A stretch of 53,319 bases of DNA from a virus (Duplodnaviria > Caudoviricetes). This document shows positions 8,776 through 17,921 of the stretch, piece after piece. The notes beneath the pieces are model-generated. The model was not told the origin of the DNA, ran no database searches, and worked only from the letters and a program-made list of their open reading frames with translations. The stretch covers positions 1 through 53,319 of IMG/VR virus record IMGVR_UViG_3300049795_000015; one strand, 5' to 3'. The translations under genes were made by a program, and so were the position numbers. The stretch's first letter is position 1; the number at the start of each line of letters is the position of its first letter.

Positions 8776-9072
8776 ATGTGTCAATACTGCTTGCTAGACG
8801 ACTATGAGGCGCCGACTATGACAGACGAAATTGCAGAATTCCGAGAGAGGCGCAACGCCGCGCTTAGGACACTAGACATGTCCTTCGCGAGGAAGATGCT
8901 GCCGGCAGCGAGCGACGAAGTTCGTTTGATCGCGATGCACAAGGGCCGTTACGAATGCGTCGACATCGATGCGTCGTTGCGCAAAGAGAGCGAACAATGG
9001 CTTCGCGAACGTAACTATCAACGTATGTACGGCTGCGGCGATTGGCCCACGGACGGCACGCTACCTGAATGA
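8776..9072 (+). CDS. Hypothetical protein
   Basis: GGAGGGAG RBS; ATGA overlap with the polymerase gene. Confidence 0.7.
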   Translation: MCQYCLLDDYEAPTMTDEIAEFRERRNAALRTLDMSFARKMLPAASDEVRLIAMHKGRYECVDIDASLRKESEQWLRERNYQRMYGCGDWPTDGTLPE

Positions 9073-12059
9073 CTAAACTCAATCACGACTTCGAGACACG
9101 CTCGCGCGTCGACTTGCCGAAGCGCGGCCTCGACGTGTACGCGCGTGACCCTTCGACGAAGGTCCTGATGTTATCTTGGGCAGTTGACGACGGCAAGGTA
9201 TCGCTGTGGGAGCCGCACAAGGGAAAGGCTCCTGCGGAGTTGCGCGATGCCTTGCTCGATCCGCACGTTGAGAAGCACGCGTGGAACGATAATTTCGAGC
9301 GGACGATATTCGAGCACGTGCTGAAGATCAAGGTGCCGGGAACTTGGCGCGACACCATGAAGAAGGCGCGGTATCTCTCTCTGCCGGGAGCGCTGTTCGA
9401 ATGCGGCCCGATTGTCGGTATCGACGCGGACAAACAGAAAATGTCGTCCGGTCGTGCGCTCATTAATAAATTTTGCAAACCGCGCACCGAAAAACAGCGC
9501 ACAGCAGCGAAACCCTGGGAGTTCAACGATTGGACGACGGACCCGGAAGCGTGGGATGAGTTCGGGCGCTACTGCGTGATCGACACCGAGGCGGAACGCG
9601 CGATTGCGAAGAAGTTTGACGCCTACCAGATGCCGGAGCGCGAATGGGAAATTGCCGCGCTTGATCGCGTCATCAATTTGCGCGGACTGCCGATCGACGT
9701 GCCGTTCGTGATGAGCGCCATAACAATGGCGGATCGCGCAAAACTCGATCTGAAACGCGAACTGAGAGACCTCTGCGGTGCGGTCAACGTAACCGGCGTG
9801 GCAGCGTTTCAGGAGTGGGCGAAGAAACTCGGATATCCCTTCAATGACATGCGCAAGGACACGGTGAAACGAGCACTGAGCGACTTCCTGAAAGAGAAGG
9901 ACGCGAATACGCTTCTGCTACGCAAAGCGCTAGGCGTGCGGTCTGATGCGACCAAGACGGCAACGTCGAAGTACAACGCGCTCATGGATCGGCAGCACGA
10001 AGGCATTCTGCGAGGCACGTTCGAGTTCTACGGCGCACAGCGCACGGGCCGATGGGCGGGCCGAGGATTTCAACCGCAGAATCTGAAGAAGCCCGACAAG
10101 AATATCGCGAAGAAACTCGACTACGTGACGCAGCTAGTGCGTGACGACGACTATGACAACATCGATTTCGAGTTCGGGTATCCGATTCGCGTGCTAGGGT
10201 CAGTCGTTCGGTCCTCGATACGTGCGCGGCCGGGGAAGATTTTGCGCGTTGCGGATTTGAACGCGATTGAGAACCGGGTACTCGGATGGCTTGCCGGATG
10301 CAAGCGCACACTAGGCGTCTTCGAGCGCAACCTCGACCCGTACAAGGCGTTCGGTGTACATCTCTATCAGACGCCATACGACCAGATTACGGCAGAACAG
10401 CGCACCGGAAGCAAGCCGGCCGTCCTCGGCGCCGGCTACCGCCTAGGGGGCGGCACGCTGATGAAAAACAAAAAAGGCGATATCGTGAAGACCGGCTTGT
10501 GGGGCTACGCCGAGAACATGGGGATCGTCATATCGAAAGAAGAGTCATGGCAAGCCGTTGCGGTCTTTCGCGAGATTCATCCGGCGATCGTCAAGTTCTG
10601 GTACGCGCTTGAAGAGGCGGCGTTACGCGCAGTCAATCAGCGCATACCTACCCGCGTCGGGCATCTCGTTCTCGATTATGTGAAAGGGTTCTTGCGGATC
10701 AAGCTGCCGTCAGGCCGGCACCTCTACTATCTTCGGCCGCACTATAAATCGGTGAAGTTTATCGGTCCTGAGGGTCCGTACTACAAGGACTGCCTGCACT
10801 ACGAAGGCGTCGATCAAGTAACAAAACGATGGGGGGTTTTGACGACGCACGGCGGGAAGATTTGCGAAAATTGTCTCGGCAGTAAAACTCGCGTTTTGAC
10901 ACCATCCGGCGTACAATTCATTTCGGATATTCGTAAAGGAGACTCGGTGTGGGACGGCATGGAATGGGTGACGACGGAAGGGGTGATAAATCAGGGGACG
11001 CAGCCCGTAGGGGAGTGGATGGGAATCCGAGTAACGCGAGAGCACCTGATAAACGATGGGAACTCGTGGCGACCAGTGTGCGAGATGGACGCCAATACAA
11101 GTCGCTCCGCCCTAAAGTTGGCGCACGATTTGGACACCTCGTCGTTGTCGCCCCCGGGACTAGTACCTACGAGCCAACGGGGTGCCTGTGCGACTGCGGG
11201 AAGGGCTGCACAATCGACACACGCCGCCTTTGGCGAGAGCAAGTGGGGCAGTGCAAAGATTGCGGTTGGGCCAAGGCGGGGCAGCGGAACCCGCAGTACG
11301 TCGGTCTGTTCCCCACTAAAGAACTTCAAAACACTTGGAGCCATCGCTATACGGGAATGGTTTCGCGGTGTACTGACATGTTTCACGACGCCTACGACAA
11401 CTACGGTCGGCGAGGCATCACAGTCTACAAACCGTGGCTCGACGACCGAATGGTATTTTTCAGATACATTAAACACCTTCGCGGGTGGAACCGAGCGGGC
11501 CTCGATCTGGATCGCAAAGACAACAACAAGGGCTATGAGCCGGGAAATCTCAGGCTCGTTTCCCGCTCGGTCAACACCCTCAATAGGCGCAATACACGCT
11601 TCGTCAAACACGACGGTCGAAAAATGCGGTACAGCGATTTTTGGCGGGAGTTCTGCCCCAAGTGGTCCTACAACACCGCTATTCGGCACTTCAACGAAGG
11701 GGAGCACTCCCGATGGATCGTGGAGAGATACCGGGCAACGAGAGGAAGTGTTTGACTTGCTAGACTGCGGCCCCCGGCATCAGTTTGCCGTCGTGACGGA
11801 CTACGGCCTGGTCATCGTGCACAACTGTTGCCAAGCCGTCGCGCGTGACGTGCTCGCCGAGGGACTGCTTGAAGCGGAACGAGAGGGGTTCTACACCGTG
11901 GGGCACGTACACGACGAAATAATTACGGAGCAAGATGTTGACGACACCTGCCACACACACGAATTGCTCGAACAGGTAATGTGTCGAAAGGCCAAGTGGG
12001 CCGAAGGACTGCCCCTTGCGGCAGCAGGGTTCAGCAGCGAAATTTACAAAAAGGATTGA
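9069..12059 (+). CDS. polA: Family A DNA polymerase with intein
   Basis: Exo I HDFETRS, TGRWAG, motif A ADLNAIENR, motif B K.AVLGAGY, GGK..EN/..QAVARD, motif C HVHDEI. Confidence 0.95.
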   Translation: MTKLNHDFETRSRVDLPKRGLDVYARDPSTKVLMLSWAVDDGKVSLWEPHKGKAPAELRDALLDPHVEKHAWNDNFERTIFEHVLKIKVPGTWRDTMKKARYLSLPGALFECGPIVGIDADKQKMSSGRALINKFCKPRTEKQRTAAKPWEFNDWTTDPEAWDEFGRYCVIDTEAERAIAKKFDAYQMPEREWEIAALDRVINLRGLPIDVPFVMSAITMADRAKLDLKRELRDLCGAVNVTGVAAFQEWAKKLGYPFNDMRKDTVKRALSDFLKEKDANTLLLRKALGVRSDATKTATSKYNALMDRQHEGILRGTFEFYGAQRTGRWAGRGFQPQNLKKPDKNIAKKLDYVTQLVRDDDYDNIDFEFGYPIRVLGSVVRSSIRARPGKILRVADLNAIENRVLGWLAGCKRTLGVFERNLDPYKAFGVHLYQTPYDQITAEQRTGSKPAVLGAGYRLGGGTLMKNKKGDIVKTGLWGYAENMGIVISKEESWQAVAVFREIHPAIVKFWYALEEAALRAVNQRIPTRVGHLVLDYVKGFLRIKLPSGRHLYYLRPHYKSVKFIGPEGPYYKDCLHYEGVDQVTKRWGVLTTHGGKICENCLGSKTRVLTPSGVQFISDIRKGDSVWDGMEWVTTEGVINQGTQPVGEWMGIRVTREHLINDGNSWRPVCEMDANTSRSALKLAHDLDTSSLSPPGLVPTSQRGACATAGRAAQSTHAAFGESKWGSAKIAVGPRRGSGTRSTSVCSPLKNFKTLGAIAIREWFRGVLTCFTTPTTTTVGEASQSTNRGSTTEWYFSDTLNTFAGGTERASIWIAKTTTRAMSREISGSFPARSTPSIGAIHASSNTTVEKCGTAIFGGSSAPSGPTTPLFGTSTKGSTPDGSWRDTGQREEVFDLLDCGPRHQFAVVTDYGLVIVHNCCQAVARDVLAEGLLEAEREGFYTVGHVHDEIITEQDVDDTCHTHELLEQVMCRKAKWAEGLPLAAAGFSSEIYKKD
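10872..11825 (+). mobile_element. Intein (318 aa, class 1) in PolA, with no in-frame endonuclease
   Basis: Block A CLGSKTRV, block B VTREH, block F VFDL, block G IVHN|C(+1); removal restores GGKICEN-CCQAVARD. Confidence 0.92.
10949..11755 (+). CDS. HNH-family endonuclease in an alternative frame inside the PolA intein (true start probably GTG at 11066 or 11078)
   Basis: GARFGHLVV, CLCDCG, CKDCG, M..RC, YDNYGRRGITV..W, LDRKDNNKGYEPGNLRLVSRSVNTLNRRN. Confidence 0.85.
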   Translation: MGRHGMGDDGRGDKSGDAARRGVDGNPSNARAPDKRWELVATSVRDGRQYKSLRPKVGARFGHLVVVAPGTSTYEPTGCLCDCGKGCTIDTRRLWREQVGQCKDCGWAKAGQRNPQYVGLFPTKELQNTWSHRYTGMVSRCTDMFHDAYDNYGRRGITVYKPWLDDRMVFFRYIKHLRGWNRAGLDLDRKDNNKGYEPGNLRLVSRSVNTLNRRNTRFVKHDGRKMRYSDFWREFCPKWSYNTAIRHFNEGEHSRWIVERYRATRGSV

Positions 12060-12062
12060 CCA

Positions 12063-12407
12063 GTGCAACCGCTCAAACTCGTCCCGAAAGAGAAACAAGT
12101 AAAGAAAAAAGACGAGAAGAAACGCGAGTCGTATATCGAGGGCAAGGTCAAAGACCGTGCGCGCGACATCGGCTTTTGGGTTCGGAAATTCGTGAGTCCG
12201 GGGCACAAGTCATCGCCGGACGACATTTTTGTTGAGCACAAGAATGGCAAAATCGTTCGATGGTTTTTCATCGAATTCAAAGCAACCGGCGAGGCGGAGA
12301 CACTGGCACAACACGACTGCCACGTCGAGATGAGGGAGGCGGGCATGACGGTATATGTCGTCGACAACGTGGAAGACGGCTATGCGATTCTCGAAGGCAT
12401 CGCGTGA
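12063..12407 (+). CDS. VRR-NUC nuclease
   Basis: ESYIE, KFVSPG..SPDD, FIEFKA, Q..H..MR..G..VYVVD. Confidence 0.88.
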   Translation: MQPLKLVPKEKQVKKKDEKKRESYIEGKVKDRARDIGFWVRKFVSPGHKSSPDDIFVEHKNGKIVRWFFIEFKATGEAETLAQHDCHVEMREAGMTVYVVDNVEDGYAILEGIA

Positions 12408-13867
12408 TCCTGCAACGCGATCAACTGCATGCGTATCAAGAACGCTTCGTTGCGTTCATCCTCCGCGTCGCGTGCTGCGCCGGATGGATCGACCTCGGCC
12501 TCGGAAAGACCGTCTCGGCGCTGACGGCGTTCAACGATCTGCGCGAAAAGTTCCTCGCGCATCGCTGTCTGGTCGTCGGGCCTCTGCGCGTCGTCACGAG
12601 CACGTGGCCCGATGAGATTGCGAAGTGGGCGCACCTGCGGCACCTGACCTACAGCGTTGTGTGCGGCACCGAAGAAGAACGCCTGACGGCGCTACGCAAG
12701 CCGGCCGACATCTACCTCATCAACTTTGACAATCTCCCGTGGCTAGAGAAGCAGATCGGCATGCACAAAATGCCGTTCGACATCGCGATTATCGACGAGT
12801 CGAGCGCGTTCAAGAACCGAGACGGCATCCGGTTCAAGGTCATGCGCCGTATGGCGCGACTGGCAACGCGAGTAATCGAGTTGACGGCGACGCCGGCGCC
12901 TAACTCCTACCTCGAACTGTGGCCGCAGTTCTACCTCGTAGACGGCGGCGCGCGACTGTTCGACAACATCACGGAATACCGCAATCGCTACTTCAGTTAC
13001 GTCGGTGCGTACGGCGAGGGCAAGTGGGTCATCAAGAAAGGGGCGAAAGAAGTCATTCAAGATCGCATCCGCGACATCACCATGACGATGCTGTCGAAAG
13101 ACTATCTGAAGATGCCGCCGATCTTGCCGCCGAACGATATCGTTATCGAACTCAACAAGGCAGACCGCAAGCGCTACGACGACGCGGAGAAAAGTTCGAT
13201 TCTGAAACTGACAGACGGCGTACAGGTGCGCGCGCCGAACGCCGTAGCCCTTGCGATCAAGCTAATGCAGTTGGCGAACGGCGTCGTGTACGACACGGAC
13301 AAGGTGCAGCACGACATCCATACGCAGAAGATCGAGGCGCTGAAAGAGATACACGACTCGGCCCTCGGTGAGCCGCTGCTAGTTACGTATCAGTTCAAGA
13401 GTGACAAGGATCGCATCCTGCGCGCGTTTCCCTCGGCGGTCTTGCTCGACAACGACCCCGAGACGATACGCCGTTGGAACCGGGGCGAAATCGACATCCT
13501 GCTCATGCACCCCAAGAGCGGAGGACACGGCCTGAACCTGCAATTCGGCGGCAACGTCATCGTATGGTATTCCCTCGGATGGTCGCTTGAACTGTACCTG
13601 CAGTTGATCGGGCGTCTGCGCCGGCAAGGGCAGACGCGGCCCGTGTCGGTCTATCGCCTCATCGTACGCAACACCGTCGACGAAATTCTGCGCGACGTTC
13701 TTGCGTACAAAGGGTCGCAACTCGAATCACTCCTGGAGGCGATGAAGGTCACGGTCGACGACGAAGAGATACCGATGCCGACGAAGGAAGTGCTCGCAGC
13801 GGAATTGACACGCCACTTGATGAAGCGATTGACAGCCGAGTCGAAGGCCGATACTGTCTGCACCTAG
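12404..13867 (+). CDS. SNF2-family helicase
   Basis: LHAYQ, DLGLGKT, IIDESS, LTATP, GHGLNLQ, QLIGRLRRQGQ; GTG start overlapping the VRR-NUC stop. Confidence 0.92.
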   Translation: MILQRDQLHAYQERFVAFILRVACCAGWIDLGLGKTVSALTAFNDLREKFLAHRCLVVGPLRVVTSTWPDEIAKWAHLRHLTYSVVCGTEEERLTALRKPADIYLINFDNLPWLEKQIGMHKMPFDIAIIDESSAFKNRDGIRFKVMRRMARLATRVIELTATPAPNSYLELWPQFYLVDGGARLFDNITEYRNRYFSYVGAYGEGKWVIKKGAKEVIQDRIRDITMTMLSKDYLKMPPILPPNDIVIELNKADRKRYDDAEKSSILKLTDGVQVRAPNAVALAIKLMQLANGVVYDTDKVQHDIHTQKIEALKEIHDSALGEPLLVTYQFKSDKDRILRAFPSAVLLDNDPETIRRWNRGEIDILLMHPKSGGHGLNLQFGGNVIVWYSLGWSLELYLQLIGRLRRQGQTRPVSVYRLIVRNTVDEILRDVLAYKGSQLESLLEAMKVTVDDEEIPMPTKEVLAAELTRHLMKRLTAESKADTVCT

Positions 13868-14240: not shown

Positions 14241-14839
14241 ACGCTCGCGTACCTAGTCACACGGAGATTGCGCTCGGCCTCACGGCGGCACAACTCGCTA
14301 AGATTTTTCGCACGAGCACGATCAACGTTCAGCGCAAGGTCAGCCTCCTGTCGCCGGTCGGGTTCCGAAACAATGCACCGATCTACGATATCGCGGAGGC
14401 GGCGCAGTTCCTCGTCAAGGCCACGGCGGACATCGAACAACTGCTCAAAGAGATGCGTCCTTCCGATATGCCGGCGTCGCTGCAGAAAGACTTCTGGGGC
14501 GCGCAGTTGCAGCGGCAGACGTACGAGGAAAAGGCCGGCAAACTGTGGAAAACGGATCGCGTGCAGGAAGCCTTCGGCAGCATCTTCAAACTGATTCGGC
14601 AACGCGTGGTGCTATTCACGGATACCGTCGACCGACAACACGAATTGAGTACGTCGCAGCGACTAGTCGTACAAACAATGGCTGATGCCCTCCTGGAGGA
14701 CATCCGCCTCGGCGTTGTCGATCTGTTCGAGAACAACTACGATCCGGCCGGCGAGCGCGATGACGTGTTCGAGAACGGCCCGCCGAAAGCAAAAGGCGGG
14801 GGCGATTTCGAAGAATTCGAGGATGAAGATGGCCTCTGA
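14237..14839 (+). CDS. terS: Terminase small subunit (DUF1441/Nu1-like)
   Basis: N-terminal wHTH (LTAAQLAKIF), LQKDFW, directly upstream of terL. Confidence 0.85.
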   Translation: MNARVPSHTEIALGLTAAQLAKIFRTSTINVQRKVSLLSPVGFRNNAPIYDIAEAAQFLVKATADIEQLLKEMRPSDMPASLQKDFWGAQLQRQTYEEKAGKLWKTDRVQEAFGSIFKLIRQRVVLFTDTVDRQHELSTSQRLVVQTMADALLEDIRLGVVDLFENNYDPAGERDDVFENGPPKAKGGGDFEEFEDEDGL

Positions 14840-17800
14840 GGAACGGTACAACAGCATAGGCAGCATCGCGCTCGACATGGGCGATACGCTACGCCCTCCG
14901 CAACGCCTGACAGTCGCCTCGGCAGCAGAGAAATATCGGCACCTTAATAACCCCGGATCGTACGTCGGCCCGTGGATGCACGCGACTACGCCGTACTTGG
15001 TCGAGCCGATGGAGTCGCTGACGGATCGCGATCACGACGCCGTAGTTTTCGTAGGTCCCGCACAATCGGGGAAAGCGCTTGCGGTAGACACCCCCATTGC
15101 AACGCCGACAGGATGGACGAACATGGGGGGCCTGCAAGCGGGTGACGAGATATTTGACGAGCGCGGAAAGCCCTGCCGCGTTACGTTCGTTACGGGCGTG
15201 ATGCAGGATCGCGTTTGCTACGAGGTTGCGTTTGACGACGGCGAGGTCATCGTCGCGGATGCAGAGCACCTATGGGCGGTCAACGACACATGGGGGGCAG
15301 GTAAGACGGTCACGACAGATTGGCTCAAAGAGCGCTACCGCATCGCGCACCGCAAAACGGGCAAGGCCCGTTATCGTTTTTCGATACCCGTTACTGCGCC
15401 TCTCGACACCCCGAAGAAAGCGCTGCCGATACCGCCGTACGTACTCGGCGCGTGGCTCGGCGACGGCGCATGTCATACGGCGCATTTCACCCTCAACACG
15501 TACGACGCGGAGGACATAACGCGCATGTGCGCAGAGCACGGATGGCGGGCGAAAGAACACTTCTACAACGGGCAAGGGAGCCGCGACTTTACCCTGTGGC
15601 GCGACGGCGTTAGTCTGCACTCAGTATTGAAAAAGCACATCGGGGCGAAGCACATACCGGAAGGGTATTTGCGCGCGTCGAGAAAACAACGTCTTGACCT
15701 ACTGGCAGGACTGCTCGACACAGACGGCGGTATCGAGGGCGGATCGCAGTGCTTCAGCACGTCCAGTGCGGTTCTCGCGGGGCAAGTTGCGGAATTGCTC
15801 TCGACGCTAGGAATTAAATTTGCGCAACGAAGCGCAATTCCGTTCTACACGTACAAAGGGGAGCGGAAGCAGGGGCAACTCTCCTACTCTTTAGACTTCA
15901 CGTCGTCGCACTGCTATCTGCGTGCGAGCCGTAAAGTGGCGATGTTCAACGCGTTCGGAAAGAAACGGCGCGATAGCCACACGACCCGCCGATGGATACG
16001 CGACATTCGCCTGGTCGAGTCGGTGCCTGTGAAGTGCATCACGGTCGACTCATCCTCGCGACTTTACCTGTGCGGAAAGGGCATGGTCCCGACGCACAAT
16101 ACCGAAATAACTCTAAATTGGATTAATCACTCAGTCATTTGTGACCCGATGGACATGATCGTCTACGACAAATCGCAAGTCTCCGCACGTGATTTCTCGA
16201 AGCGTCGTGTCGATCGTATGCACCGGCACAGCCCCGAGGTCGGCGCGCGCATGATCCAAAAGGCCGACGCGGATAACGTCTTCGACAAGATATACAAGAG
16301 CGGCATGATCCTCACACTATCGTGGCCTTCGATCGCGGAGTTATCGGGGCGCCCCGTGGGGCGCGTCGCACAGGTCGACTACGACCGCATGCCGGAAGAC
16401 GTAGACGGGGAAGGCTCCCCGTTCGACCTCGGGCGCAAACGGACAACGACGTTCGGCTCGTCTGCCATGACCTTGGCTGAGTCCTCGCCGGGGTACGAGA
16501 TTACGGATACCAAGTGGATGCGACGTACGCCCCACGAAGCGCCCCCGTCGAAAGGCATTCTCTCGCTCTACAACCGAGGCGATCGCCGCCGATGGTACTG
16601 GCACTGTGAGCACTGCCGCGAATGGTTCGAGCCGGAGTTCTCGCTGCTCAAGTGGGTCGAGAAGGAAGACGCCGTAGCGACGGCTAAGTCGGTGCACCTC
16701 ATGTGCCCACATTGCCAAGTGTTGATCCCCCCGAGCGACAAAGCGCGAATGAACCGACAAGGCCGATGGGTCTCGGAAGGTCTCAAGATACGGCGCGACG
16801 GATCGCTCGAAGGCACGCCGGTTAGGTCCGACATCATCAGCTACTGGCTCAAGGGACCTGCTGCGGCCTTCGCCCCGTGGCACACATTGGTCAGTCGGTA
16901 TCTCGCGGCAGAACAAGAGTTCCTTCGCACGGGGTCGCAGGAAGCGCTCAAGGCCACGGTCAACACGGACCAGGGCGAACCCTACTACCCGCGCGGCACG
17001 CAGTCTGAGCGCCTTCCTGACGCGTTGAAGGAACTCGCGATCGATCTGCCGAAGCACGTCATTCCCGAAACGGTGAATTTTCTGATCGCCACGGCCGACG
17101 TGCAGAAGAACCGATGGGAGATACAGATCACGGGCGTCGGGCCGGGGGCGCCGTTCGCCCTGACGGTCATCGATCGTTTCCCGATCGTGAAGTCGAAGCG
17201 CCTGGACGATGAAGGCGATCCGCTATGGGTCAAACCTGCAGCCTTTCTCGAAGACTGGGCACTGCTAGAAACGGAAGTGTTAGAAAAGCGCTACGAGACG
17301 CACGACGGCGGGTCGATGGGCGTCGCCTTCCTCGGTTGTGATTCGGGTGGTCGCGAAGGCGTTACCGAGAAGGCGTACGACTGGTTCCGACAGTTGCGCA
17401 AAAAAGGGGCCGGCGAACACAACCGGGTGTTCCTCATCAAGGGCGATCACACACCGGCGTCGCCTCGGACCCGCATCAGCTACCCGGACTCGGCACGCAA
17501 GGATCGCAAGGCAGCGGCCCGCGGCGAGATACCCGTGTTGCTCCTGAACGTCAACATGCTTAAAGATCAAATGCAGAATATGCTGGAGCGCAACGACACG
17601 ACGATCCCGGCGATCACCTATCCCGCGTGGCTCCCTGACGACTGGTTCAACGAAATGTGTGCGGAACGACGCACTGTCAAAGGATGGGAGAACCCACGCA
17701 AGGCGCGCAACGAGGCATGGGATTTGACGAACTATGCGATCGGCATTTGCGTGCATAAAAAGGTCGATCGTCTCAACTGGGAAGACCCGCCTGCCTTCGC

Positions 17801-17921
17801 GGCACAGTCGGAAAAGAACCCGTATCTAGTCCGACCTAGCACAAATGCGCAAAAAAGTCTTGATAAAAGTCCAAAAGGTCAATACTCTTCGCTCCGTGAA
17901 CTAGCGGCAACACTTACTTGA
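14829..17921 (+). CDS. terL: Terminase large subunit (lambda GpA family) with intein
   Basis: TPYLVEPM, Walker A GPAQSGK/T, CEHC..CPHC, GCDSGG, RNEAWD; GAGGA RBS before ATG 14829. Confidence 0.95.
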   Translation: MASEERYNSIGSIALDMGDTLRPPQRLTVASAAEKYRHLNNPGSYVGPWMHATTPYLVEPMESLTDRDHDAVVFVGPAQSGKALAVDTPIATPTGWTNMGGLQAGDEIFDERGKPCRVTFVTGVMQDRVCYEVAFDDGEVIVADAEHLWAVNDTWGAGKTVTTDWLKERYRIAHRKTGKARYRFSIPVTAPLDTPKKALPIPPYVLGAWLGDGACHTAHFTLNTYDAEDITRMCAEHGWRAKEHFYNGQGSRDFTLWRDGVSLHSVLKKHIGAKHIPEGYLRASRKQRLDLLAGLLDTDGGIEGGSQCFSTSSAVLAGQVAELLSTLGIKFAQRSAIPFYTYKGERKQGQLSYSLDFTSSHCYLRASRKVAMFNAFGKKRRDSHTTRRWIRDIRLVESVPVKCITVDSSSRLYLCGKGMVPTHNTEITLNWINHSVICDPMDMIVYDKSQVSARDFSKRRVDRMHRHSPEVGARMIQKADADNVFDKIYKSGMILTLSWPSIAELSGRPVGRVAQVDYDRMPEDVDGEGSPFDLGRKRTTTFGSSAMTLAESSPGYEITDTKWMRRTPHEAPPSKGILSLYNRGDRRRWYWHCEHCREWFEPEFSLLKWVEKEDAVATAKSVHLMCPHCQVLIPPSDKARMNRQGRWVSEGLKIRRDGSLEGTPVRSDIISYWLKGPAAAFAPWHTLVSRYLAAEQEFLRTGSQEALKATVNTDQGEPYYPRGTQSERLPDALKELAIDLPKHVIPETVNFLIATADVQKNRWEIQITGVGPGAPFALTVIDRFPIVKSKRLDDEGDPLWVKPAAFLEDWALLETEVLEKRYETHDGGSMGVAFLGCDSGGREGVTEKAYDWFRQLRKKGAGEHNRVFLIKGDHTPASPRTRISYPDSARKDRKAAARGEIPVLLLNVNMLKDQMQNMLERNDTTIPAITYPAWLPDDWFNEMCAERRTVKGWENPRKARNEAWDLTNYAIGICVHKKVDRLNWEDPPAFAAQSEKNPYLVRPSTNAQKSLDKSPKGQYSSLRELAATLT
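15075..16100 (+). mobile_element. Class 3 intein (342 aa) with LAGLIDADG endonuclease
   Basis: Ala1 ALAVDTPI, block B ADAEHLW, LGAWLGDG and LAGLLDTDG, block F VKCITV, PTHN|T(+1). Confidence 0.93.

What the first reader, a model, noticed from the sequence alone, without database searches (positions are those of the whole stretch)
10872..11825. Dual-coding intein: homing-type endonuclease encoded out of frame inside the PolA intein
Seen: PolA is interrupted at GGKICEN|CCQAVARD by a 318-aa intein with intact splicing blocks (C1, TxxH, VFDL, HN-C+1). The ~230 aa where an endonuclease normally sits are Ser/Thr/Gly-rich filler (TTPTTTT, SSAPSGPTT) with no nuclease motif. The same DNA in the -1/+2 frame (ORF 10949-11755) encodes an HNH-family protein (G.RFG.LVV, CLCDCG, YDNYGRRGITV, DRKDNNKGYEPGN..N..N). 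Its recognisable part begins just after block B and its TGA falls inside block F (GTG-TTT-GAC), and both frames stay stop-free. Known: canonical inteins carry their endonuclease in frame. Inference: a free-standing endonuclease invaded a mini-intein out of frame, using splicing to remove its footprint from an essential gene, and is translated separately (GTG 11066/11078) or by -1 frameshift, uncoupling homing from splicing. Caveats: the motif has DR rather than DH, so activity is unproven, and alternative-frame intein endonucleases may have some literature precedent that should be checked.
Basis: partly seen in the sequence, partly recalled or inferred. Interest (0 to 1): 0.93.

Follow-up and report, generated by a model that had tools for sequence, protein, structure and literature searches.

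The report
Hidden endonuclease gene inside polymerase intein
A soil phage's DNA polymerase gene carries a self-splicing intein whose middle also encodes, in a shifted reading frame, a separate homing-endonuclease-like protein; this overlapping layout is common and evolutionarily maintained in phages, although similar layouts were recently described for other inteins.

Summary
The phage PolA gene (9069-12059) is interrupted at GGKICEN|C by a 318-aa intein (10872-11825). A 268-codon ORF (10949-11755) lies inside it in the -1 frame.

That ORF belongs to a phage family annotated as HNH endonucleases (PHROG E=3.6e-28). With an alignment it folds confidently (pLDDT 89.4) and contains a beta-beta-alpha-metal core.

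It is not a sequencing artefact or a relic. Of 248 related loci examined, 136 have the same nested, out-of-frame layout, 110 are free-standing genes, and none is an in-frame intein domain.

In every pair tested, wobble-position substitutions follow the PolA frame in the exteins but switch to the endonuclease frame in the intein centre. This holds for both frame offsets.

The invariant "DR...GY.P.N" motif resembles PacI, an active nuclease in which a tyrosine replaces the catalytic histidine.

No slippery site is conserved, so internal initiation is the likeliest route. For the window the best candidate is GTG 10949 with an AAGGAG seven bases upstream.

The architecture has precedent (Gorbalenya 1998; two preprints, 2025 and 2026). 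I found no report of this HNH-type, PolA-borne family. One Jerseyvirus record annotates its member as splicing domains only.

Expression, splicing and cleavage remain untested.

The parts
9069..10871 (+). PolA N-extein (family A DNA polymerase, phage type)
   Evidence: phrog_17 DNA polymerase E=3.6e-93. Pfam DNA_pol_A scores 33 bits, just under its cut-off. 31% identity to Salmonella phage PolA.
10872..11825 (+). Intein, 318 aa, in the PolA frame (Cys1 ... His-Asn, followed by Cys+1)
   Evidence: In a 79-intein alignment C1, T55, H58, D295 and N318 are invariant. The profile matches solved inteins: PI-MtuI RecA mini-intein 4.5e-5, Spl DnaX mini-intein, NEQ068. Exteins are continuous in an allele empty at this site.
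10936..10941 (+). AAGGAG, Shine-Dalgarno-like, 7 nt before GTG 10949. In the PolA frame it is part of the Lys-Gly-Asp codons.
   Evidence: L091 and L094 have AGGAG/AGGGAG at the same spacing before a start at the same intein codon.
10949..11755 (+). Nested ORF in the -1 frame, 268 codons plus TGA: HNH-like (PacI-like DR/Tyr variant) homing-endonuclease candidate. Alternative starts: ATG 10964, GTG 11015.
   Evidence: AF2 with an 82-sequence alignment gives pLDDT 89.4. BFVD gives 94 matches at E<=0.001, among them phage proteins named HNH, AP2 or HTH homing endonuclease.
10949..11117 (+). Zone coding in both frames: intein N-terminal splicing domain (block B Thr 11034-11036, His 11043-11045; Trp66 11067-11069) over the N-terminal part of the nested protein (DKRWELV hairpin).
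   Evidence: All three codon positions are constrained here. L095/L096 show 15 changes in 156 sites, against 136/420 in exteins and 126/591 in the centre. L001/L003 show 10/165.
11118..11747 (+). Intein centre. In the PolA frame it is a Thr/Ser/Ala/Gly-rich, unconserved linker. In the -1 frame it is the folded endonuclease-like protein.
   Evidence: (composition; amino-acid identity is higher in the HNH frame in all 10 pairs).
11189..11263 (+). CxC...CxxC zinc-ribbon-like motif of the nested protein (C76, C78, C97, C100 in the numbering that starts at ATG 10964).
   Evidence: Nearly invariant in the 82-sequence alignment.
11501..11584 (+). Predicted beta-beta-alpha-metal core of the nested protein: Asp183-Arg184 (11510-11515), Tyr191 (11534-11536), Asn195 (11546-11548), Asn207.
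   Evidence: DSSP of the model: strands 180-184 and 196-200, helix 201-206. R184, Y191 and N195 are invariant in 82/82. The motif aligns to PacI 3ldy residues 81-114.
11630..11746 (+). C-terminal helical module of the nested protein (helices 223-230, 236-244, 249-261), shared with the window's own clade.
11753..11755 (+). TGA stop of the nested ORF, formed by the last base of Phe (TTT) and the first two of Asp (GAC) in intein block F.
11748..11825 (+). Intein C-terminal splicing region (VFDLLDCGPRHQFAVVTDYGLVIVHN).
11826..12059 (+). PolA C-extein, starting with Cys+1 (11826-11828), stop codon included.
   Evidence: phrog_7766 DNA polymerase 2.4e-49.

Best explanation
The window's PolA gene carries a composite selfish element. 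It is an intein whose DNA also encodes, in the -1 frame, a complete gene for a homing-endonuclease-like protein.

Ribosomes that read polA go straight through in the PolA frame. [quoted passage not shown] The intein then excises itself and restores the polymerase. This step is inferred.

The endonuclease-like protein is made separately by internal initiation on the same mRNA. GTG 10949, with AAGGAG 7 nt upstream, is the best candidate; ATG 10964 and GTG 11015 are alternatives. This step is also inferred.

The protein has a zinc-ribbon-like motif, a beta-beta-alpha-metal core with the PacI-like motif Asp-Arg...Gly-Tyr.Pro.Asn, and a helical C-terminal module. It most likely cuts or nicks intein-free polA alleles so that the whole unit is copied in by repair (inferred from family and context).

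Shown here: the ORF is real, it is conserved, and it is under purifying selection in its own frame. The PolA frame is kept open across it. The layout recurs in 136 of 248 related loci, at several insertion sites and in both alternative frames.
For: 1. Family membership of the -1 frame. There are 8 PHROG hits, 5 of them named HNH endonuclease (best 3.6e-28). tblastn finds 689 phage records, and 28 of the 30 best rows lie under DNA polymerase annotations.

2. Same offset elsewhere. In all 4 phage PolA genes checked, the match is offset +2 from the annotated CDS, and the longest offset-2 open frame (248-272 aa) sits inside the intein.

3. Counts of layouts. Viral contigs: 40 nested at frame +1, 5 nested at +2, 39 free-standing, of 84. 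Metagenome: 47, 10, 23, of 80. Genome contigs: 10, 20, 48, plus 2 long non-intein fusions, of 80. No in-frame intein version was found.

4. Codon-position test. Exteins change mostly at PolA position 3. The intein centre changes mostly at PolA position 2, which is HNH position 3. L001/L003: 6/41/15 changes at positions 1/2/3, of 193 sites each. L095/L096 (window clade): 14/84/28 of 197, p=1.7e-18. Window/L091: 71/136/81 of 194, p=1.3e-9. This held in all 17 informative pairs. In frame +2 loci the peak moves to PolA position 1, as predicted, in 5 of 5 pairs.

5. Amino-acid identity of the centre is higher in the HNH frame in 10 of 10 pairs, for example 0.84 against 0.52.

6. Folding. pLDDT is 89.4 with the alignment and 32 without it.

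7. The PolA frame is stop-free by chance in only 0.9-2.8% of resamplings. In free-standing relatives that frame is closed.

8. Intein identity.

9. The tree places the nested lineages among free-standing genes.
Against: There is no direct evidence of translation, splicing or cleavage.

Nuclease identity is weakly supported. The canonical catalytic His is absent (Arg in 82/82). No Pfam or NCBIfam HNH model matches. Foldseek against the PDB finds nothing at E<=0.001. The PacI and I-HmuI sequence matches are weak (E 0.49-1.2 and 0.22).

Two free-standing relatives (L213, L228) combine this module with a canonical DH-type HNH-like motif. The DR module could therefore be a DNA-binding part in some contexts.

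The start codon is not settled. The three conserved candidate starts (intein codons 26, 31 and 65) all derive from conserved Trp codons of the intein. Only 28 of 79 first ATGs have an SD-like 4-mer upstream.

The window has no close relative; the best has 47-49% identity in the HNH frame. Selection on this particular copy is therefore inferred from its clade.

Identical inteins in diverged polA genes (L114/L115, L139/L140) lie in identity blocks that extend well beyond the intein. They do not prove homing.
Confidence: 0.8

Rival explanations
1. The nested protein is real and selected but is not itself a nuclease. It would be a sequence-specific DNA-binding or accessory protein (for example a targeting, regulatory or maturase-like factor), with cleavage done by another enzyme or not at all.
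For: The catalytic His is replaced by Arg in 82/82 sequences. There is no Pfam HNH match and no PDB fold match. L213 and L228 pair this module with a canonical DH-type motif. Several BFVD relatives are named AP2 or DNA-binding proteins.
Against: The family behaves like homing-endonuclease genes: free-standing copies in many phages, nested copies at several sites and in two frames. [quoted passage not shown]
Confidence: 0.13
2. The endonuclease is joined to the intein by programmed ribosomal frameshifting. Either a -1 shift after the N-terminal splicing domain gives a fusion, or a -1 then +1 pair puts the domain in frame.
For: The ORF lies exactly in the -1 frame, and its recognisable part begins after block B.
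Against: A canonical XXXYYYZ heptamer is present in only 12 of 81 loci, at scattered positions, and is absent from the window. Lineages with the ORF in the +1 frame also exist (35 loci). The PolA frame is kept open through the whole centre, which obligatory shifting would not require. Clade members have ATG preceded by AGGAGG, AGAGG or GGGAG.
Confidence: 0.04
3. The -1 ORF is a decaying relic of a formerly in-frame HNH intein domain, displaced by two compensating indels and no longer functional.
For: The ORF occupies the place where intein endonuclease domains normally sit. In-frame HNH inteins exist (cited in the passage read).
Against: The wobble periodicity follows the HNH frame in every pair tested. 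The ORF is intact in 136 nested loci. No in-frame relative was found among 248 loci.
Confidence: 0.02
4. Sequencing or assembly artefact: two compensating indel errors hide an in-frame endonuclease domain.
For: None was found. The window comes from a metagenome assembly.
Against: The same offset is seen in 4 isolate phage genomes and in 132 further contigs from three collections. An independent contig assembly is identical with no indels, although possibly from the same sample.
Confidence: 0.01

Closest known systems
Cyanobacterial DnaX intein with a LAGLIDADG endonuclease in the +2 ORF (Phillips, DeSimone & Gogarten, bioRxiv 10.64898/2026.09.14.751524: abstract and section 17 read; Gorbalenya 1998 'Non-canonical inteins': only cited there, not read)
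   Same: An intein whose endonuclease is read in another frame of the same strand. The in-frame centre is unconstrained. Low dN/dS in the endonuclease frame is the evidence of function. The authors propose secondary invasion of a mini-intein.
   Different: The endonuclease family differs (LAGLIDADG there, PacI-like HNH variant here). The host gene differs (bacterial dnaX there, phage family A polymerase here). Here there are many insertion sites and both alternative frames. Here the nested ORF also overlaps splicing blocks at both ends.
Actinobacteriophage non-canonical inteins (Gosselin, Arsenault & Gogarten, bioRxiv 10.1101/2025.01.02.630785: abstract, sections 8 and 15 and searched passages read; supplements not available)
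   Same: [quoted passage not shown] Relatives are free-standing genes. The model is invasion of the intein by a free-standing endonuclease gene.
   Different: In that survey the HNH endonucleases are in frame. The out-of-frame type is endonuclease VII-like. [quoted passage not shown] Their hosts are Actinobacteria phages. Their 'DNA polymerase' host category could not be checked against the supplementary tables.
ShiLan-domain hidden HNH endonuclease in mycobacteriophage DNA methylase genes (Arsenault et al. 2025, PMC11855218: abstract, sections 3.6 and 4.3 read)
   Same: An out-of-frame HNH-type ORF inside a host gene whose frame stays open. It starts at an internal GTG. How it is translated is unresolved.
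   Different: No splicing domains are present there. The insert is thought to be tolerated as a loop, not removed by protein splicing.
[quoted passage not shown] 2009, PMC2677866: abstract and searched passages read)
   Same: [quoted passage not shown] The paper gives a model for how inteins acquire endonucleases.
   Different: There the host gene is broken into two ORFs and the intein works in trans. Here one continuous ORF is kept (tested), and the endonucleases are GIY-YIG or Vsr-like there.
PacI restriction endonuclease (PDB 3ldy/3m7k), His-Me finger group 20 (Jablonska et al. 2017, PMC5714182; Taylor & Stoddard 2012, PMC3384342: searched passages read)
   Same: A beta-beta-alpha-metal core in which Asp-Arg replaces Asp-His and a loop tyrosine takes over. 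The motif DR.D...GY.P.N.RL aligns. Zinc-binding cysteine motifs flank the core.
   Different: The sequence match is weak (E 1.2 for the single sequence, 0.49 for the profile). PacI is a 142-aa homodimeric restriction enzyme, not a mobile-element gene. Fold comparison with the PDB gave nothing.

Membership tests
Intein (Hint fold, class 1) | Cys/Ser at position 1, block B Thr-x-x-His, C-terminal His-Asn, nucleophile at +1 | tested here: met
   C1, T55, H58, D295 and N318 are invariant, and H317 nearly so, in 79 related inteins. The window has Cys+1.
Intein (Hint fold, class 1) | Insertion interrupts a host protein that is continuous in other alleles | tested here: met
   BLASTP against the Salmonella phage PolA joins GGKICEN and CCQAVARD to THGGKACENIVQALCRD.
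Intein (Hint fold, class 1) | Sequence similarity to known inteins or curated Hint models | tested here: inconclusive
   The 79-sequence profile hits solved inteins at 4.5e-5 to 7.9e-4. No Pfam model matches the window's intein, and only 2 of 79 members match Vint.
Intein (Hint fold, class 1) | Protein splicing activity | not testable with these tools
   Inferred from intact blocks in a replication gene.
HNH / His-Me finger nucleases | Beta-beta-alpha-metal fold | tested here: met
   The AF2 model (pLDDT 89.4) has strands 180-184 and 196-200 followed by helix 201-206. This is a prediction, and there was no PDB fold match.
HNH / His-Me finger nucleases | Catalytic histidine at the end of strand 1 | tested here: not met
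   Arg184 in 82 of 82 aligned sequences.
HNH / His-Me finger nucleases | Match to curated HNH profiles | tested here: inconclusive
   PHROG families named HNH endonuclease match (3.6e-28). Pfam and NCBIfam give none. I-HmuI E=0.22.
PacI-like His-Me finger (group 20) | His replaced, with a tyrosine in the loop between the strands taking its role | tested here: inconclusive
   Tyr191 lies in the 185-195 loop and is invariant, and the motif aligns to PacI. E-values are 0.49-1.2, and the chemistry is untested.
Non-canonical intein with an out-of-frame endonuclease | Endonuclease ORF inside the intein in another frame, intein frame open, purifying selection in the endonuclease frame | tested here: met
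Fractured gene / split intein with free-standing endonuclease gene | Host gene broken into two ORFs | tested here: not met
   A single 996-aa ORF.
Programmed -1 ribosomal frameshift site | Conserved slippery heptamer in the zero frame | tested here: not met
   12 of 81 loci, at scattered positions; none in the window.

The most novel reading that the evidence does not exclude
The out-of-frame overlap is an adaptation, not an accident. A large family of phage inteins, until now taken for endonuclease-less mini-inteins, is driven by a tyrosine-dependent (PacI-like) HNH variant. This enzyme is translated independently from start codons and Shine-Dalgarno-like sequences built into conserved intein codons. 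Because its start and stop lie inside splicing blocks, the endonuclease gene and the intein cannot easily be separated or lose each other. This would let the pair keep homing among several polymerase sites and escape the usual decay to a mini-intein. That none of 136 nested copies is in frame would then reflect selection against fusion.
Probability: 0.3. Interest if true: 0.75.

Novelty: new variant of a known kind. Interest (0 to 1): 0.6.

Why it matters
1. Annotation. One Jerseyvirus record (vB_SenS-Ent1) annotates its PolA intein as 'encoding splicing domains' only, and gene callers skip the overlapping ORF. About 190 Salmonella and Escherichia phage records in the phage collection match it, but only six of them were examined here.

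2. Evolution. The family supplies many natural intermediates between a mini-intein plus a free-standing endonuclease gene, a canonical in-frame intein, and a fractured gene. It occurs in both alternative frames and at several sites, so the 'splicing first, endonuclease later' model can be tested comparatively.

3. Overlapping genes. The codon-position shift is a clean, control-rich example of dual coding. A ~170-nt zone is constrained in both frames.

4. Enzymology. If active, these proteins would be a large natural set of PacI-like, tyrosine-using site-specific nucleases.

Tried and rejected
- blastn of 10600-12059 against phage genomes found no match. A single-protein scan of viral contigs with PolA found nothing, and with the nested ORF only 4 distant loci. 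The window therefore has no close relative in these collections, or such relatives are withheld.

- Single-sequence AF2 of the nested protein failed (pLDDT 32). It was replaced by the alignment-based model.

- Foldseek against the PDB gave no match at E<=0.001; the top rows were polo-box domains at E 0.3-1 and were treated as noise.

- The protein-atlas look-up gave only unnamed viral clusters. The nearest named ones carry I-HmuI_NUMOD-like or NUMOD1 domains on a minority of members, so they are leads only.

- Identical inteins in diverged polA genes (L114/L115, L139/L140) were examined as a sign of recent homing. The identity blocks extend 328-603 nt upstream, and in one case more than 2 kb downstream. 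Ordinary phage mosaicism explains them equally well.

- 'No in-frame copy' as proof of selection was rejected. The tree shows about four nested lineages, and (2/3)^4 is about 0.2.

- The antisense open frame 10991-11707 matched no PHROG family and was treated as a by-product.

- Expression: no RNA holder was listed for this stretch. Only contigs of one DNA run could be laid on the sequence.

- Literature. Searches found no report of an out-of-frame HNH in a PolA intein. Supplementary tables of Gosselin et al., which list their non-canonical inteins and host genes, were not available and may bear on this. Gorbalenya 1998 and Shen et al. 2010 were not read; they are known only from citations and review passages. 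The I-HmuI catalytic residue numbering is recalled and was not used as evidence.

Full report
**What is in the window.** The window is a complete 53,319-bp virus record with direct terminal repeats. One holder run is labelled soil metagenome.

One search lists a 996-aa ORF at 9069-12059. It is a phage family A DNA polymerase: phrog_17 E=3.6e-93, and Pfam DNA_pol_A at 33 bits, just below its cut-off. Its neighbours are replication genes:
- an exonuclease
- a Gp2.5-like ssDNA-binding protein
- a small endonuclease
- an SNF2-type helicase
- terminase subunits

The translation reads ...THGGKICEN|CLGSKTRVLT...VTREH...VFDLLDCGPRHQF...VIVHN|CCQAVARD.... BLASTP against a Salmonella phage PolA that is uninterrupted here aligns the two flanks to one continuous stretch, THGGKACENIVQALCRD. 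So 10872-11825 is a 318-aa insertion with intein hallmarks.

A 79-sequence alignment of related inteins has C1, T55, H58, D295 and N318 invariant. Its profile matches solved inteins: PI-MtuI RecA mini-intein at 4.5e-5, Spl DnaX mini-intein, and NEQ068. Pfam Hint models do not match the window's intein.

**The second frame.** ORF 10949-11755 lies at offset +2 (-1) to polA. It matches 8 PHROG families, 5 of them named HNH endonuclease (best 3.6e-28). It matches no Pfam or NCBIfam model.

The in-frame centre of the intein is 52% Thr+Ser+Ala+Gly and matches nothing.

Given the -1-frame protein, synonymous resampling leaves the PolA frame stop-free in 0.9% of 20,000 trials. Codon permutation leaves it stop-free in 2.8%.

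A second assembly of a soil-metagenome run gives the identical sequence with no indels. It may be from the same sample.

**It is a conserved architecture, not an accident.** tblastn of the nested protein against phage genomes finds 689 records. Of the 30 best rows, 28 lie under DNA polymerase annotations. Weaker rows are free-standing genes, several annotated HNH endonuclease.

I fetched four of these polymerase genes: two Jerseyvirus-like Salmonella phages, EBPR siphovirus 2 and Pseudomonas phage MR14. In all four the match is offset +2 from the annotated CDS. The in-frame intein centre is again filler. The longest offset-2 open frame (248-272 aa) sits inside the intein.

Their intein sits at a different PolA site (IGKA|C...HN|CELGLGY), which the window has uninterrupted. 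The window's own site is uninterrupted in them.

Profile-guided scans gave 80 loci from each of three collections, and the scans were capped. I called a locus nested when another frame is stop-free across the whole match and is more than 60 codons longer than the HNH open frame. The counts are:

| Collection | Loci | Nested, PolA = HNH frame +1 | Nested, frame +2 | Free-standing | Other |
|---|---|---|---|---|---|
| Viral contigs (including the 4 loci) | 84 | 40 | 5 | 39 | 0 |
| Metagenome contigs | 80 | 47 | 10 | 23 | 0 |
| Genome contigs | 80 | 10 | 20 | 48 | 2 |

The two 'other' loci have long ORFs in the HNH frame. They have no intein N-domain and are multidomain free-standing proteins.

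With the four phage loci this makes 136 nested and 110 free-standing of 248. None has the domain in frame with an intein.

Intein junctions were checked on the covering ORFs:
- 49 of 50 (window, 4 phage and 45 viral loci) hit an N-terminal intein HMM, and 48 of 50 have an HN[CST] junction.
- Both junctions were located in 43 of 57 metagenome loci.
- I did not verify that every covering ORF is a polymerase. A few junction contexts look different (L014, L131, L136, L153).

Insertion sites include K..|C/S-G-[YF]-G (the motif B region), EN|C.Q..AR (the window's site) and a position three codons upstream of it (L090, L095, L096).

**Which frame is under selection.** In every aligned pair, extein substitutions peak at PolA codon position 3. 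In the intein centre they peak at PolA position 2, which is the third position of the nested frame.

| Pair | Region | Changes at positions 1 / 2 / 3 | Sites per position |
|---|---|---|---|
| L001/L003 | N-extein | 55 / 36 / 229 | 447 |
| L001/L003 | Intein centre | 6 / 41 / 15 | 193 |
| L095/L096 (window clade) | Extein | 30 / 17 / 89 | 140 |
| L095/L096 (window clade) | Intein centre | 14 / 84 / 28 | 197 |
| Window/L091 | Intein centre | 71 / 136 / 81 | 194 |

The p-values are 1.7e-18 for L095/L096 and 1.3e-9 for window/L091. Eight pairs were run and eleven. Two pairs had identical inteins and were uninformative, so 17 of 17 informative pairs agree.

As an internal control, in frame +2 loci the peak moves to PolA position 1, as predicted, in 5 of 5 pairs.

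Amino-acid identity of the centre is higher in the nested frame in 10 of 10 pairs, for example 0.84 against 0.52.

Where the nested ORF overlaps the N-terminal splicing domain (intein codons 31-82), all three positions are constrained. L095/L096 show 15 changes in 156 sites there, against 136/420 in exteins. That zone appears to code in both frames.

**What the nested protein is.** With an 82-sequence alignment the model reaches pLDDT 89.4 and pTM 0.65; alone it reaches 32. The model shows:
- an N-terminal beta hairpin
- a CxC...CxxC motif
- helices
- a beta(180-184)-loop-beta(196-200)-helix(201-206) unit
- a helical C-terminal module

Invariant residues are R135, Y147, R150, G151, I152, R184, Y191 and N195. 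Nearly invariant are D183, P193, N207, R209 and the four cysteines.

BFVD gives 94 matches at E<=0.001. The best is a 247-aa uncharacterised protein of Salmonella phage LPSE1, and others are proteins named HNH, HTH homing endonuclease or AP2. Foldseek against the PDB finds nothing. The VIA libraries were unavailable.

The best PDB sequence match of the core is PacI: LGVDRSDSFEGYSPQNARL against LDLDRKDNNKGYEPGNLRL, at E 1.2 for the single sequence and 0.49 for the profile.

Two reviews state that PacI lacks the histidine and that a tyrosine in the loop takes its role, possibly as nucleophile (passages read in PMC5714182 and PMC3384342). Tyr191 lies in that loop and is invariant. This is a motif-level argument with weak statistics. 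It makes nuclease activity plausible but does not show it.

L213 and L228, which add a canonical DH-type motif downstream, caution that the DR module may not always be the catalytic one.

**How it is probably made.** A canonical slippery heptamer is present in 12 of 81 frame +1 loci, at scattered positions, and not in the window. Frame +2 lineages also exist. Frameshifting is therefore unsupported.

Candidate starts recur at intein codons 26 (51/81), 31 (67/81) and 65 (64/81). Each is NTG formed with a conserved Trp codon, so their conservation is partly a by-product of the intein.

In the window's clade the open frame of L090 and L096 begins only near codon 40, and that of L095 near codon 36. 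L090, L093, L095 and L096 have ATG at codon 48, preceded by AGAGG, AGGAGG or GGGAG at 7-8 nt. L091, L094 and the window have a start at codon 26, preceded by AGGAG, AGGGAG or AAGGAG at 7 nt.

For the window I therefore favour GTG 10949. ATG 10964 and GTG 11015 remain possible. GTG 11066 or 11078 would delete the conserved DKRWELV hairpin.

Stops also fall inside splicing blocks. The window's TGA is made from TTT-GAC of block F. In 9 loci the stop is TAA made from the final His-Asn codons.

**Origin.** In a FastTree of 148 endonuclease sequences the frame +1 loci form one large clade of 77 (support 98) and the window's own clade of 9 (support 99). The frame +2 loci form two clades: one of 7 (support 95) and one of 6 (support 96). 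The clade of 6 lies inside a 47-row, otherwise free-standing clade (support 99).

The tree is unrooted, uses local supports, and flags long branches. It fits repeated capture of free-standing genes by inteins, the model of Dassa 2009 and Gosselin 2025, but does not fix the direction.

**What is known.** Out-of-frame or antisense endonucleases in inteins are on record:
- The Synechocystis DnaX intein (Gorbalenya 1998, as cited).
- Cyanobacterial dnaX inteins with a +2 LAGLIDADG ORF and frame-specific dN/dS.
- Actinobacteriophage inteins with frame-3 endonuclease VII-like and antisense LAGLIDADG or VSR-like genes; in that survey HNH was in frame.
- A hidden HNH in a methylase insertion that is not an intein.

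Eight literature searches found no report of an out-of-frame HNH-type gene in PolA inteins. The vB_SenS-Ent1 record annotates this intein as 'encoding splicing domains', in contrast to its LAGLIDADG helicase intein. Supplementary tables of the 2025 preprint could not be seen.

**Verdict.** I rate it a new variant of a known, recently described kind. It is notable for its abundance, its two frame arrangements, its overlap with splicing blocks and its PacI-like motif. Expression, splicing and cleavage are untested.

Noticed in passing
window 15075-16100 (within ORF 14667-17918, +): The large terminase subunit (GpA_ATPase 6.5e-64, GpA_nuclease 7.2e-60) carries a second, canonical intein of 342 aa. 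It is inserted in the Walker A motif (GPAQSGK|ALAVDTP...VPTHN|TEITL). It starts with Ala rather than Cys/Ser and has an in-frame LAGLIDADG_3 domain (aa 343-384 of the open frame, E=1.6e-5). The same phage therefore holds one in-frame and one out-of-frame endonuclease intein.
   Followed up: partly
window 10991-11707 (-): A 238-codon antisense open frame spans the intein centre, so three of the six frames are open here. It matches no PHROG family. Comparable antisense open frames are irregular in relatives. It is probably a by-product of the double coding constraint and the 56% G+C.
   Followed up: partly
L213:3429-5078 and L228:3357-5042 (genome contigs, MAGs labelled Casimicrobiaceae and Burkholderiales): Free-standing 550- and 562-aa proteins combine an N-terminal DR-type module of this family with a downstream canonical DH-type HNH-like motif (ADHINMDTRDDRPGNLRW) and Cys-rich C-terminal parts. 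This may bear on whether the DR module is catalytic.
   Followed up: partly
L114 vs L115; L139 vs L140 (metagenome contigs): The inteins are 100% identical (897 and 945 nt) while the surrounding polA differs by about 9% and 2%. However, the identical blocks extend 328-603 nt upstream, and in one pair more than 2 kb downstream. This is a mosaic pattern compatible with homing plus co-conversion or with ordinary recombination.
   Followed up: yes
L045 (viral contig), L068, L087: The PolA-frame open stretch ends or begins inside the endonuclease ORF. L045 has no N-terminal intein hit, although its endonuclease frame is 92% identical to the Jerseyvirus one. These are possible broken or 'fractured' versions of the arrangement.
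   Followed up: no
L171:4215-4567 (Salmonella phage vB_SenS-Ent1): The neighbouring helicase gene of this Jerseyvirus is annotated with a separate LAGLIDADG intein. Jersey-like phages therefore also carry both intein types in their replication module.
   Followed up: no
window 12063-12407 / 12260-13867 (+): The small endonuclease-like ORF (phrog_93, 1.8e-20) overlaps the start of the helicase ORF (phrog_62, 2.9e-139) by about 150 nt as listed from the first start codon. The true helicase start is probably further downstream.
   Followed up: no
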